DNA from: a virus
Lineage: Duplodnaviria > Caudoviricetes
Strand: one strand, 5' to 3'
Length of the DNA: 64,000 nt
IMG/VR virus record: IMGVR_UViG_650627111_000001
Location: 61,957-125,956 of that record
Made by a program: the position numbers and the translations under genes. The notes below the pieces were generated by a model. That model was not told the DNA's origin, ran no database searches, and worked only from the letters and a program-made list of their open reading frames with translations. The stretch's first letter is position 1. The number at the start of each line of letters is the position of its first letter. Below are positions 12,443 to 20,266 of this stretch, in pieces.

Positions 12443-12704
12443 CAATGGTCAGTTATAGAGGCGTTCTTGTTATTCAAGTCTCCCTCTTTCCACCGTTTCC
12501 GGTGTTGTCGGATCATATCTTCTGTGATTTATCACAGCCCTACGTTTGGAGGTTCACTTGAACCCCTACTTGCCTACACTCATCAGCAATGATCTCTCCA
12601 CCCACGAATTTAATCGTTCGGCTCGATGTTACCGTATCCTATAATTAGAACTTAGGTTTCCTCGAATTAGCAGGGTTATTTAACGTGGTACCACTGGATT
12701 ATTT
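12443..12704 (-). mobile_element. Group I intron (262 nt, no ORF) in terL
   Basis: Excision restores FYGGA|AGGGKS. 5' exon ends in U, intron ends in G. P1 GUGGUGCU/GGUACCAC has a U-G pair at the splice site; P10 CCAGU/GCUGG; P7-like GAUCAU/AUGAUC within AAGAUAUGAUCC. Confidence 0.92.
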
Positions 12705-12800
12705 AGCACCACCATAGAAACACAAGGGCATATCATCCCACGTGTTGGCAAATTTTGTTTGCGGTCCCGCTTGAGGCCTTAGTAGAACATTGTCACTCAT
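12705..12800 (-). CDS. terL: Terminase large subunit, exon 1 (32 aa)
   Basis: MSDNVLLRPQAGPQTKFANTWDDMPLCFYGGA is a typical TerL N-terminus; ATG overlaps the upstream TGA (ATGA). Confidence 0.9.
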
Positions 12801-16250: not shown

Positions 16251-16370
16251 TCAATACCCCTTAATCATGTAATAATTTTCATAAATGTAATATAAAAGAA
16301 AAATAACTGTAGTTGGGATCATTTCATCACCTATTCGTTGTACTTATTTAGAATGTAATATCTCGTTGTA

Positions 16371-16543
16371 AAAAGAAAACCCTGCCTCCACAGATGAAAG
16401 CAGGGTAGAGTGTAACGGTACAAGGAGGGAATACACGTACACAAATGGCAGTGATGTCGAAGTTCCCTTGTTCTGATTCTTATATGGGAATGTGAGGGAT
16501 ATGAAGTCTACCTAAGAGGAGGAGGAACTTGGTAAACTCCATA
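16371..16543 (-). ncRNA. Candidate small RNA with anti-SD loops
   Basis: TGTTATAGT at 16549-16557; 12-bp hairpin with UCCUCCUCCU loop; second UCCCUCCUU; terminator ACCCUGCUUU..GGAGGCAGGGU-UUUCUUUUU; no ORF. Confidence 0.6.
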
Positions 16544-16583
16544 CAATAACTATAACACAGTTGAGAATTATTATCAACAATAA

Positions 16584-17795: not shown

Positions 17796-18140
17796 TTATT
17801 GCTTCGAACGTTCTTCTAATCTCGCAGCATTGACAGCAGTTTGAGTTGCAAGTTTTGATGTTGTCTCTACAATCAAATCGAGTTTACGATGCATATCTTT
17901 CCGTTCTTCACGATCTTCTGACATGGTTTTGTCAAGAGCATCCATCCTATGCAAGATAGTTTGTTGAGACTCTTCTAGTTCATCAATTCGTAGAAGAACT
18001 GCATCACGCTCTTTCTTTTTTGCTGCTAAAAATACACGAACTTTGTTACCAATCCACCCAACTAACGCTGCAAAAGCAATGTAAAACTTTAAAGCTTGGT
18101 CACTAATCAGAGAACCAAAGTGATTCAAGAAATCAATCAT
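17796..18140 (-). CDS. Membrane-anchored coiled-coil protein of the lysis cassette
   Basis: One TM helix then coiled coil; likely start ATG 18140 downstream of promoter 18190-18198. Confidence 0.65.
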   Translation of the reverse strand: MIDFLNHFGSLISDQALKFYIAFAALVGWIGNKVRVFLAAKKKERDAVLLRIDELEESQQTILHRMDALDKTMSEDREERKDMHRKLDLIVETTSKLATQTAVNAARLEERSKQ

Positions 18141-18256
18141 CGCAAATCCTGTTATAATTATTCTAAAGTATGAAAAAGGGTGTATAGAAATTATAACATA
18201 ATTTATCATTAATGAGAATCATTTTTATTGAAATGTCAAGAAGATTTTATACAGGT

Positions 18257-18287
18257 AAAAGAAAACCCCGCACAATGGCGAGGTTTT
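18257..18287 (-). terminator. Intrinsic terminator of the large ncRNA
   Basis: AAAACCUCGC-CAUUGU-GCGGGGUUUU-CUUUU. Confidence 0.8.
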
Positions 18288-19142
18288 ATATTATTCGGGA
18301 CGTCTCCCTAGATATTCACAGTGTCTTACTTCTGGCTCCGAAGAGTCTTAACTTACCTTTCGGTATGTTTCTTACCTTGCCTTGCGGCTACCAGCTCCAT
18401 AGGGTTCACGTAATTACACTACGCTTAGGATGCTATTGCTGTCCGAACTTGCTATGATTTACGCTGATTATAGTTGTCACTCAGGTGCATTGCTTATTTG
18501 CTTTACCATCGGGTAGCTACTCTCTGCAAGTGTAGACATCTATAACACAGATAAGAACTGTGGGATGAAGTTTCTACAACTTTATCGTGACAACACCTCT
18601 AATCCATTTTACTTGGTGACGAGGTCAGTTCCAAGGATTTTTAACAACTAGTTTACTCTAGGAACCGAGGTATTACCTCTCAATACTGCAATGCTTTTGC
18701 CATCCAAATATGTTAGGTAGGTTACAGTCATTGCTTTATGTAACAATCACCCTAAGACATTATCATCTCTGAAACATGGATGTGTTAGTGTAATCGTAAT
18801 ATCCATAGGTGACGTCGGCCTGTTCTAATCTAGAGGATTGCTAGATCTGTGTTTAAAGTTGTCACAGCAACACTACCATTCCATATCGTCTTCAGGTAGC
18901 TTATCCCGCCTACACAAAACCGAAGTTTCTCGATGTGTAGGGTACTCACTAGGTGAGATTATTTTATCCTGACCCTCGTCTCAGGTAAATGCTAATCGAG
19001 GTAGCAAAAGTTGCCGCACTATTCACGGCAGTCAAACTATTCATCTCCAGATTCCGGTAGCGAGTCATCCTCTGGTCATGTGCAAGTCGTCACTTTGCAT
19101 TTCGCCTTAACATAACGGTCGTAAGGTGAATTCTTTAATCTA
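18257..19142 (-). ncRNA. Large (~890 nt) structured non-coding RNA
   Basis: No credible ORF; promoter and terminator at its ends; UUCG and GNRA tetraloop hairpins; long-range complementary segments. Confidence 0.8.
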
Positions 19143-19148
19143 TAATCA

Positions 19149-19178
19149 ATCTTAACATGTAGATTGCGTTGCTGTCAA
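19149..19178 (-). promoter_or_regulatory. Sigma70-type promoter for the large ncRNA
   Basis: TTGACA-18-TAAGAT with extended TG, embedded in the 3' end of ORF 19152-19409. Confidence 0.75.
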
Positions 19179-20266
19179 GAGATTATTCGCAACTTTATTT
19201 CGTAACATTGCTAATGTTTCTTCGAGCAAATCAATCATATCTCCATCAGAGAATGTTTGCAAGATATTTCGCCCACTAAAGCAATCACCTTGATTAACAG
19301 TCACAGTTGTAACACCTTCTTCAGCGACATCAAAGTTAATATACCCAGATTCGCTTCCATTGTCAAACGAAAGTTCGACTTCATTTTCATAAATTGTAAT
19401 CATTACCAATTATCTCCTCTTATTCAAAAACTATTGATTTCGTCTAAAAGATTTTCAACCTCTTCTTCCAGAGCTTTAATACGCATTGCCATTGCAAGGA
19501 TATAATCCTCAAGATGAAAGCAATAGAAACTTCCGTTACGAAAAATCGCTTGCTCACCTTCGTTATATTCGTATGTGTATTTACCTAATTCAATTGTGAA
19601 ATTTTCCATTACTCGCCAACCTTATCATAAACTAAACCTTCCGAATCCACACCAAAGATCTCAAGATAACCATTTTGTGTGGCGATTAAATCTTTCACTT
19701 CCATATCAGATAAATCTACACCAATACAGGTTTCTACAACATCGTCAATATCATGTGGGTGACGGTCAACTCGATAAACATCATATAACATAGTTAGTCC
19801 TCCTCCACTTCCCACGCTACATCACCTAGTAATACTTTAATAAGTTCATACGCCTGTTGTGGTGAGTTTACTCGTGTTTTAAACTGATAGTCTTCAAAAC
19901 CCAATCCACTCCAAACACTAATCACACCATTATCCAGTACTTCGATTACACCGCCAAGGTCACCAACCTTACTATACAAACCTATGCCATTGCCATATGG
20001 GTATTCTCCGCAAGGTGTATTTTTCAAGAAGTAGTCAACTACTTCTTCATATGTATTAAAACTTTCCATAATCATTTCCTCCGTTTCGATTGTTCCCATC
20101 GAGTTTGAAATTTCAAATACTCTGACGGGTGATAATATAAAATTTGGTCTAACACTTTACGATCCCAGTTTACCTCATCTGTACCAGATGTCAATAAATT
20201 TTCTAGATAATCTATTGACCACTTACGTGTAGGTATCCAAGGTCGTGGTCTTTTCTTGTTTGCCAC
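19152..20266 (-). CDS. Cluster of five small hypothetical proteins
   Basis: Tightly packed ORFs 19152-19409, 19424-19609, 19609-19815, 19794-20099, 20072-20266 with RBSs. Confidence 0.6.

What the first reader, a model, noticed from the sequence alone, without database searches (positions are those of the whole stretch)
18257..19142. ~890-nt ornate non-coding RNA gene beside the lysis cassette
Seen: the only long ORF-free gap in a tightly packed genome, bounded on the minus strand by TTGACA-18-TGnTAAGAT (19178-19149) and an intrinsic terminator (18287-18257). It has stable tetraloop hairpins (aacUUCGguu, cucUUCGgag, gccGCAAggc, uaccGAAAggua) and a 5' third made of local hairpins. A ~520-nt 3' domain is closed by a long interrupted helix (18796-18816 with 18299-18319: GACGUC/GACGUC, CCUA/UAGG, GAUAUU/AAUAUC). 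Other complementary pairs are 18413-21/18786-94, 18322-28/18753-59, 18473-80/18587-94, 18487-93/18688-94 and 18576-84/18854-62; several cross each other, implying pseudoknots or alternative folds. Known: GOLLD and ROOL are phage-associated large ornate RNAs of similar size, reported to form multimeric cages. I also recall ICP1 RNA-seq noting an abundant transcript from an ORF-less gap here (to verify). Inference: a GOLLD/ROOL-like or new class of giant phage RNA of unknown function.
Basis: partly seen in the sequence, partly recalled or inferred. Interest (0 to 1): 0.92.

Follow-up and report, generated by a model that had tools for sequence, protein, structure and literature searches.

The report
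ICP1's known long RNA is modular
This gene-free stretch encodes the already published, very abundant long non-coding RNA of the cholera phage ICP1; it is not a GOLLD or ROOL relative but a chain of separately folding RNA modules that related marine vibrio phages carry, in other combinations, just downstream of their tRNA genes.

Summary
The locus is real and is the longest ORF-free stretch of the window. It has a sigma-70-like promoter and an intrinsic terminator on the minus strand. It is already in print as the most abundant ICP1 transcript, about 800 nt, function unknown. Rfam gives no GOLLD, ROOL, OLE or intron match. The sequence is a mosaic of six segments (mod0, A, AB, B, C, D). Five of them recur, in different subsets, in 23 of 27 related vibriophages; 4 relatives hold none. 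Where both are present, the modules lie downstream of same-strand tRNA genes, and homologues of ICP1's downstream genes follow in 12 relatives. Covariation strongly supports modA (30 of 54 pairs compensatory) and modB (11 of 23) as autonomous folds on the minus strand. The closing helix also clashes with covarying modA pairs. Only 18473-80/18587-94 holds: it is modB's closing stem. A self-complementary element in modB stays palindromic while it varies, which hints at RNA self-association. The function remains unknown.

The parts
19149..19178 (-). sigma-70-like promoter, TTGACA-18-(TG)TAAGAT; predicted start near 19142
   Evidence: 10 of 12 matches, TG present. In RNA run X5 a contig of lower depth stops at 19141, where the very deep part begins (weak, contigs only).
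19038..19135 (-). mod0: about 100-nt 5' leader module
   Evidence: nhmmer finds it in 11 of 27 relatives. It lies upstream of the tRNA genes in 5 of the 5 relatives that hold both. Its hairpin shows a double compensatory change, UGUGAG/CUCACA against UGCAAG/CUUGCA.
19012..19030 (-). terminator-like hairpin between mod0 and modA
   Evidence: 7 pairs, 4 G-C, weak T run. Its function was not tested.
18794..19013 (-). modA: about 220-nt multi-helix module
   Evidence: Covariance model R2 hits the window and 4 relatives (eugene, R16F, henriette, PWH3a-P1) at E 1e-61 to 1e-74. Of 54 pairs, 30 show changes on both sides; 92.9% of cells are paired against 32-41% when partners are slid; 0 of 500 shuffles reach the observed values.
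18656..18798 (-). modAB: segment without a detected homologue
   Evidence: nhmmer finds it in 0 of 27 relatives. It is not a detectable paralogue of modB.
18466..18636 (-). modB: about 170-nt module, closed by 18587-18594/18473-18480
   Evidence: nhmmer finds it in 14 of 27 relatives, one of them partial. Covariance model R1 hits 13 relatives. Of 23 pairs, 11 show changes on both sides; 92.1% of cells are paired against 27-42% when slid.
18513..18520 (-). self-complementary GUAGCUAC inside modB
   Evidence: The aligned position stays palindromic while it varies among relatives.
18349..18465 (-). modC (two sub-parts, C1 and C2)
   Evidence: C1 is found in qdvp001 and CoeS_P1; C2 is found in henriette, where it lies before modA.
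18321..18388 (-). three tandem units of a tetraloop hairpin (GCAA, GAAA, UUCG) followed by an AAGNUAAGA-like tail
   Evidence: Henriette has two such units.
18251..18343 (-). modD, including the intrinsic terminator 18287-18262
   Evidence: Found in 1.084.O and 1.101.O, and in part in CoeS_P1. Terminator.
18190..18218 (-). separate promoter-like site for the downstream (lysis-cluster) genes
   Evidence: TTCTCA-17-(TG)TATAAT, 10 of 12 matches.

Best explanation
This is the published ICP1 long non-coding RNA. It is one host-polymerase transcription unit of about 0.82-0.89 kb on the minus strand. It is not one globular giant fold. It is a string of at least five autonomous structured segments: mod0, A, B, C and D, plus the lineage-specific AB. 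It is the tRNA-less counterpart of a tRNA/stable-RNA operon of related vibriophages. In those phages the same modules occur in other combinations, downstream of co-oriented tRNA genes and upstream of the same downstream genes, and homing-endonuclease genes are often wedged between them.

Shown: the promoter and terminator, the absence of coding signal, module homology, covariation in modA and modB, the strand, synteny, and abundance (from the literature).

Inferred: the RNA accumulates because its compact folds resist decay, and it acts in trans as a high-copy structured RNA. Each module would then be a separate unit that binds a host or phage factor of RNA/tRNA metabolism or translation, or binds itself. 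I put about 35% on factor binding or titration, 20% on self-assembly and 15% on base-pairing sponge action.
For: The transcript and its abundance are in Barth 2020, Boyd 2021 and the Sprenger 2022 preprint. RNA-run contigs hold the locus, and X5 is very deep between about 19141 and 18325.

Module table over 27 relatives: mod0 in 11, modA in 4, modB in 14, modC in 3, modD in 3, modAB in 0, none of them in 4. No relative holds all modules. R16F keeps the order 0-A-B. Henriette has C before A.

In R16F an annotated 264-nt CDS lies between A and B. In eugene a gene annotated as an HNH endonuclease in the RefSeq record lies between A and B.

Covariation. G.U cells outnumber A.C cells 29 to 5, which fixes the strand.

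tRNAs: 18 genes in 14 of the 27 loci, all on the module strand. They lie upstream of modules A-D in 10 of the 10 relatives that hold both.

Homologues of the downstream proteins follow the ORF-free stretch in 12 of 27 relatives. There is one copy each of modA and modB in the whole phage record.
Against: No experiment seen here shows separate module function or processing. The literature describes a single transcript of about 800 nt, and I could not see the Northern blot (Sprenger Fig. S3; supplements are closed). The order 0<A<B is kept wherever two of these modules co-occur, which also fits one RNA with optional domains. Four of the 27 relatives share none of ICP1's modules. modAB has no homologue, so about 140 nt are unexplained. 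The factor-binding step is inference only, and no partner is known. Hi-GRIL-seq chimeras point instead to base pairing with many transcripts.
Confidence: 0.6

Rival explanations
1. It is one large RNA that works like GOLLD or ROOL without being their relative. The full-length transcript, or modB within it, would self-associate through a symmetric kissing contact into RNA-only dimers or cages.
For: The size, the abundance, the phage origin and the tRNA neighbourhood in relatives match the GOLLD/ROOL lifestyle. Just 5' of the conserved YGAURG in modB, 9 of 13 sequences carry a Watson-Crick palindrome of 6 nt or more, against a 15% null for 15-nt windows. There are five distinct versions (GUAGCUAC, ACUAGCUAGU, UCUAGA, ACUAGU, CCUAGG), plus UCUAGG with G.U and CCGG in 3 sequences. 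Kretsch et al. 2025 (passages) used the same kind of palindrome switching (GGCC/GAUC/AGCU) to support symmetric kissing loops in OLE and GOLLD. Single-sequence folds give this element no consistent intramolecular partner.
Against: The statistics are modest: by my own rough estimate p is about 0.01, given a shared 4-nt core. A first test that allowed G.U pairs in 28-nt windows was uninformative, with a null of 72-76%. The alignment of the CCGG group is uncertain. The loop context is not established. There is no Rfam similarity to GOLLD, ROOL or OLE. In relatives the modules are separated by protein genes.
Confidence: 0.2
2. It is a base-pairing sponge or regulator: it pairs with the satellite sRNA SviR and with many PLE and ICP1 transcripts, sequestering them or speeding their turnover.
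For: The Sprenger et al. 2022 preprint reports lncRNA chimeras with PLE and ICP1 transcripts in Hi-GRIL-seq and proposes a sponge role (passages).
Against: The authors themselves leave non-specific ligation open, and an extremely abundant RNA gives chimeras by mass action. The conserved parts are multi-helix folds with invariant loops shared with marine phages of other Vibrio and Enterovibrio hosts; that is not the usual pattern of linear seed regions. I did not test complementarity to SviR.
Confidence: 0.15
3. It is a long structured leader or cis-regulator of the lysis genes just downstream, with read-through of the terminator setting lysis timing.
For: An ORF-free RNA region upstream of the same downstream genes is kept in 12 of 27 relatives and is noted in Boyd 2021.
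Against: A strong terminator and a separate promoter-like site lie between the RNA and the next gene. In X5 the depth drops about 100-fold before the gene (weak, contigs only). The RNA is expressed throughout infection, whereas lysis genes are late.
Confidence: 0.05
4. It is not an RNA gene but a DNA element (origin, packaging site) or a set of small protein genes.
For: Small ORFs of 30-81 aa exist on both strands. Some depositors annotate such ORFs over the homologous stretches.
Against: Compensatory changes keep helices, with 29 G.U cells against 5 A.C cells. The small ORFs have no family match. The transcript is abundant.
Confidence: 0.02

Closest known systems
GOLLD RNA (large phage/prophage RNA near tRNA islands)
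   Same: It is about 800 nt, phage-encoded, abundant in lytic growth and of unknown function. Part is conserved and part is variable. It is associated with tRNA genes (in this case only in the relatives), and it may have a palindromic self-contact.
   Different: There is no match to the Rfam model even at E<=10. The helices and motifs are different. ICP1 itself has no tRNA. Multimer formation is untested.
ROOL RNA
   Same: It is a large, ornate, highly expressed phage RNA, often near tRNA islands, with no known protein partner.
   Different: There is no Rfam match. Here the conserved units are about 100-220-nt modules that shuffle between phages.
OLE RNA symmetric kissing loop L9.3
   Same: A loop tetranucleotide switches between palindromes while staying self-complementary (for OLE and GOLLD; here).
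   Different: There is no sequence or structure relation. OLE is bacterial and works with proteins.
Stable small RNAs of the phage T4 tRNA gene cluster (species 1 and 2 RNA); recalled from memory, no call
   Same: They are non-tRNA structured RNAs co-transcribed with phage tRNAs, of unknown function, in a region rich in homing endonuclease genes.
   Different: No homology was tested. ICP1 has lost the tRNAs and keeps only the other RNAs, as one long abundant transcript.

Membership tests
GOLLD | Match to the family covariance model (conserved 3' half) | tested here: not met
   Rfam 15 cmscan gave 0 matches at the gathering score in the window. GOLLD was not among the 13 matches at E<=10 in 18000-19400. 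The 18 relatives' loci gave only tRNA matches.
GOLLD | Phage or prophage location next to tRNA genes | tested here: inconclusive
   ICP1's window has no tRNA. Homologous modules lie downstream of tRNAs in 10 of the 10 relatives that hold both.
GOLLD | RNA-only multimeric nanocage | not testable with these tools
   The only lead is a palindrome that covaries in modB.
ROOL | Match to the family covariance model | tested here: not met
ROOL | High abundance of a non-coding transcript of about 0.6 kb or more from a phage | tested here: met
   The literature reports it. RNA-run contigs cover the locus, at very high summed depth in X5.
Group I / group II introns, OLE, HEARO, raiA, 6S, tmRNA, RNase P RNA | Match to any Rfam model | tested here: not met
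tRNA or tRNA-like remnant | Cloverleaf detectable by ARAGORN or the Rfam tRNA model | tested here: not met
   ARAGORN found 0 at default settings and at ps90. At ps80 it gave one weak hit, on the opposite strand.
Structured non-coding RNA (general) | Helices kept by compensatory changes, with strand-specific G.U pairs | tested here: met
   modA has 30 of 54 pairs compensatory and modB 11 of 23. For both, 0 of 500 shuffles reach the observed covariation score. G.U cells 29, A.C cells 5.
Base-pairing sponge RNA | Defined complementarity to target RNAs, with an effect on them | not tested
   I saw only the authors' chimera data, in passages.

The most novel reading that the evidence does not exclude
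The ICP1 RNA and its relatives would be a third, independent lineage of RNAs that are associated with phage tRNA islands and self-assemble. It would be built from shuffled cassettes. modB would dimerise or oligomerise through a symmetric contact whose sequence changes between phages (AGCU, CUAG and CCGG cores with covarying flanks) but always stays palindromic, as in OLE L9.3 and GOLLD L21a. The most abundant RNA of a cholera-phage infection would then be an RNA-only assembly.
Probability: 0.2. Interest if true: 0.8.

Novelty: already known. Interest (0 to 1): 0.5.

Why it matters
ICP1 is the dominant phage of epidemic Vibrio cholerae. This RNA is its most abundant transcript, and the authors who found it flag its role as an open question.

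In the library searches I found nothing on the following points. (1) The RNA has covariation-supported modules. (2) The modules are shared piecemeal with marine vibriophages, where they sit in tRNA operons; this removes the stated difference from GOLLD and ROOL ('not near tRNAs'). (3) The proposed long-range closure is not supported. (4) A palindromic element gives a concrete, cheap test for self-assembly.

Module boundaries also tell experimenters what to delete or express separately. Several harmless-host relatives, such as phages of Vibrio natriegens, offer the same modules.

Tried and rejected
- Rfam at the gathering score and at E<=10 gave nothing relevant. The best match was isrJ at 28.2 bits, below its cut-off of 37, over the terminator. 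Rfam on 18 relatives' loci gave only tRNAs.
- Whole-RNA MFE z-scores are similar on both strands and do not discriminate.
- Pattern scans of public collections found no true homologue. Two strict patterns gave 0 hits in IMG/VR. A modA pattern gave 0 hits in IMG/VR and 1 in GTDB genomes (Tepidanaerobacter), which model R2 did not confirm. All homologues therefore come from the 'phages' collection.
- modAB as a paralogue of modB: the covariance model with filters off gave no hit there.
- Tandem Repeats Finder found nothing in 18200-19200.
- tRNA remnants: none.
- The first palindrome test, with G.U allowed in 28-nt windows, had a null of 72-76% and mis-placed anchors, so I dropped it. I replaced it with the position-specific test.
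- RNA runs were available as contigs only. X1, X2 and X4 each cover 17800-19600 in one contig and say nothing about ends. For X5, the depth boundaries (about 19141 and about 18325) and the adapter-bearing ends at 18322/18324 are a weak hint from a single study that the abundant form ends before the terminator hairpin.
- Pfam and PHROGs gave no function for the five flanking proteins. The label 'lysis cluster' therefore rests on the papers.
- I made no formal pair count for mod0, because the window row is shifted by two columns in alignment A6.
- I considered a CsrA-type GGA sponge but did not compute it.

Full report
WHAT IS THERE. The window is bases 61957-125956 of a 125,956-bp virus record. 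On the minus strand, 18257-19142 is bounded by a sigma-70-like promoter at 19178-19149 (TTGACA, 18-nt spacer, TG, TAAGAT) and by a hairpin-plus-T-run terminator at 18287-18262. The longest stretch of the window with no ORF of 50 aa or more on either strand is 18458-19151, 694 nt; the next longest are 351 and 333 nt. The minus strand of the gap holds only ORFs of 32, 39 and 34 aa. None of the five small ORFs I tested matched a PHROG family. ARAGORN finds no tRNA in the window.

ALREADY IN PRINT. Barth et al. 2020 (PMC7567579; section 9 read) report that the most abundant ICP1 transcript lies in an ORF-less space of about 1 kb between gp139, the start of the lysis cluster, and gp140. They estimate it at about 800 nt and compare it by length with GOLLD and ROOL, with the remark that ICP1 has no tRNAs.
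- Boyd et al. 2021 (PMC9040626; passages) say it is expressed robustly throughout infection. [quoted passage not shown]
- The Sprenger et al. 2022 preprint (passages) reports a Northern blot, conservation in all 67 ICP1 isolates, and Hi-GRIL-seq chimeras with many transcripts, and it suggests a sponge role. I could not see its supplementary Northern blot, so I do not know the band size or sizes.
- Searches for later work and term look-ups in two 2026 papers found no structural or functional study.
- Public RNA runs agree that the locus is in infected-cell RNA. Three runs of one study cover 17800-19600 in single contigs. In a run of a second study, 1,107 contig pieces pile up between about 19141 and about 18325, with summed depth 124,000-580,000 against 2,100-33,000 beside it. 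This is contig depth, so it is only a weak indication. It fits the predicted start near 19142 and hints that the abundant form ends near 18323, before the terminator hairpin.

NOT GOLLD OR ROOL. Rfam 15 gives no match at the gathering score in the whole window. At E<=10 in 18000-19400 it gives no GOLLD, ROOL, OLE, intron or other large-RNA match.

HOMOLOGUES AND MOSAIC BUILD. blastn against 50,697 phage records found only partial, colinear matches in ORF-free stretches of large marine vibriophages: 12 records, none covering 80% of the query. I walked out from these matches and fetched 27 relatives. Iterated nhmmer then split the ICP1 RNA into segments:
- mod0 (19135-19038) in 11 of 27 relatives
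- modA (19009-18800) in 4
- modAB (18798-18656) in 0
- modB (18636-18470) in 14, one of them partial
- modC (18465-18349) in 3
- modD (18343-18251, including the terminator) in 3

Four relatives share none of these segments, and no relative has them all. R16F keeps the order 0-A-B. Henriette has part of C before A. In R16F and eugene, annotated protein genes lie between A and B; one of them is annotated as an HNH endonuclease in the RefSeq record. Covariance models find the same sets of hits and a single copy of modA and of modB in the whole phage record.

CONTEXT. ARAGORN finds 18 tRNA genes (Arg, Gly, Met) in 14 of the 27 loci, all on the module strand (Rfam agrees). In the 10 relatives that hold both tRNAs and modules A-D, the tRNAs come first. 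In the 5 relatives that hold both mod0 and tRNAs, mod0 comes first. Promoter-like hexamers precede mod0 in 11895-B1 and 1.101.O (alignment). Homologues of ICP1's second and third downstream proteins follow the ORF-free stretch in 12 of the 27 relatives. The ICP1 locus is therefore the counterpart of a tRNA/stable-RNA operon that has lost its tRNAs. HNH or T5orf172-type endonuclease genes are frequent in these stretches. I infer that homing-driven exchange explains the shuffling.

STRUCTURE.
- modA (5 sequences): 54 pairs in 10 helices, of which 30 show changes on both sides. 92.9% of cells are paired, against 32-41% when partners are slid. None of 500 shuffles reaches the observed values.
- modB (11 sequences): 23 pairs, 11 compensatory, 92.1% of cells paired against 27-42% when slid.
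- G.U cells outnumber A.C cells 29 to 5, so the selected molecule is RNA of the minus strand.
- mod0 has a hairpin with a double compensatory change.
- modC/D carry three tandem units of a tetraloop hairpin followed by an AAGNUAAGA-like tail.
- A GUGACAAC-UUUAAA-like motif recurs at three stem ends.

All six complementarities exist, but such matches are as frequent in shuffles. The 'closing' helix is matched or beaten by the best long-range duplex in 24 of 25 shuffles. Its 5' strand overlaps covarying modA pairs. Its two strands lie in modA and modD, which never co-occur in a relative. Only 18587-94/18473-80 is supported; it is modB's stem P1.

HOW IT MAY WORK. The parts that are shown are the strong constitutive promoter, the autonomous conserved folds with invariant loops, and the tRNA-operon ancestry. 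The rest is inferred.
- My leading view is a high-copy structured RNA whose modules act separately in trans on some factor of RNA or translation metabolism (about 35%).
- Self-assembly has about 20%. It rests on a self-complementary element just 5' of a conserved YGAURG in modB. That element is a Watson-Crick palindrome of 6 nt or more in 9 of 13 sequences, in five distinct versions, against a 15% null. Kretsch et al. 2025 used the same kind of signal for OLE and GOLLD kissing loops (passages). This support is suggestive, not strong.
- Sponge action has about 15%.
- A cis role on the lysis genes and non-RNA readings are unlikely.

VERDICT. The object is real and already published. The GOLLD/ROOL family claim and the single closed 3' domain are not supported. 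What is new is the modular, covariation-backed anatomy, the link to tRNA operons, and a testable self-association element.

Noticed in passing
L001 1885-2406; L003 510-1088; L010 1589-2146; L022 1898-2551; L015 1459-1998; L019 958-1500: Free-standing HNH or T5orf172-type endonuclease genes sit inside the tRNA/structured-RNA stretches of many relatives. They may drive the module shuffling by homing.
   Followed up: no
L007, L010, L013, L020, L195 (for example L195 2481-2732): Some deposited records annotate many hypothetical proteins of 30-60 aa, on both strands, over stretches that match the structured-RNA modules. These are probably over-annotation.
   Followed up: partly
window 19012-19030 (-): A second terminator-like hairpin with a weak T run lies between mod0 and modA. 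mod0 also stands alone in a 163-nt intergenic gap of phage P018-4, so mod0 may be a small RNA or leader of its own.
   Followed up: partly
window 19003-19012, 18852-18866, 18466-18480 (-): A motif like GUGACAAC-UUUAAA recurs three times, each time at the 3' side of a stem. It is conserved in the modA and modB homologues. Its meaning is unknown.
   Followed up: no
window 18321-18388 (-); L008 about 1650-1700: ICP1 has three tandem units, and henriette two, of a stable tetraloop hairpin followed by an AAG-N-UAAGA-like single-stranded tail. This looks like a repeated binding site.
   Followed up: partly
L010, L011, L013, L020, within modB: An extra hairpin with a GUAA or GAGA loop is inserted into modB in four relatives, and a variable insert of up to about 150 nt lies between modB's 5' sub-domain and its core.
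   Followed up: no
window 18762 and 17949: Contigs of three RNA runs of one study read G where the window has A on the + strand at these two places. This is most likely a difference between isolates.
   Followed up: no
window 12446-12796 and 16251-16583: These are the next-largest stretches without an ORF of 50 aa or more. Barth et al. mention a second non-coding transcript of about 300 nt between gp135 and gp136, which may be one of these.
   Followed up: no
window 18212-18457 (+): An 81-aa ORF lies antisense to modC/D and the terminator. It has no PHROG match and is probably spurious.
   Followed up: partly
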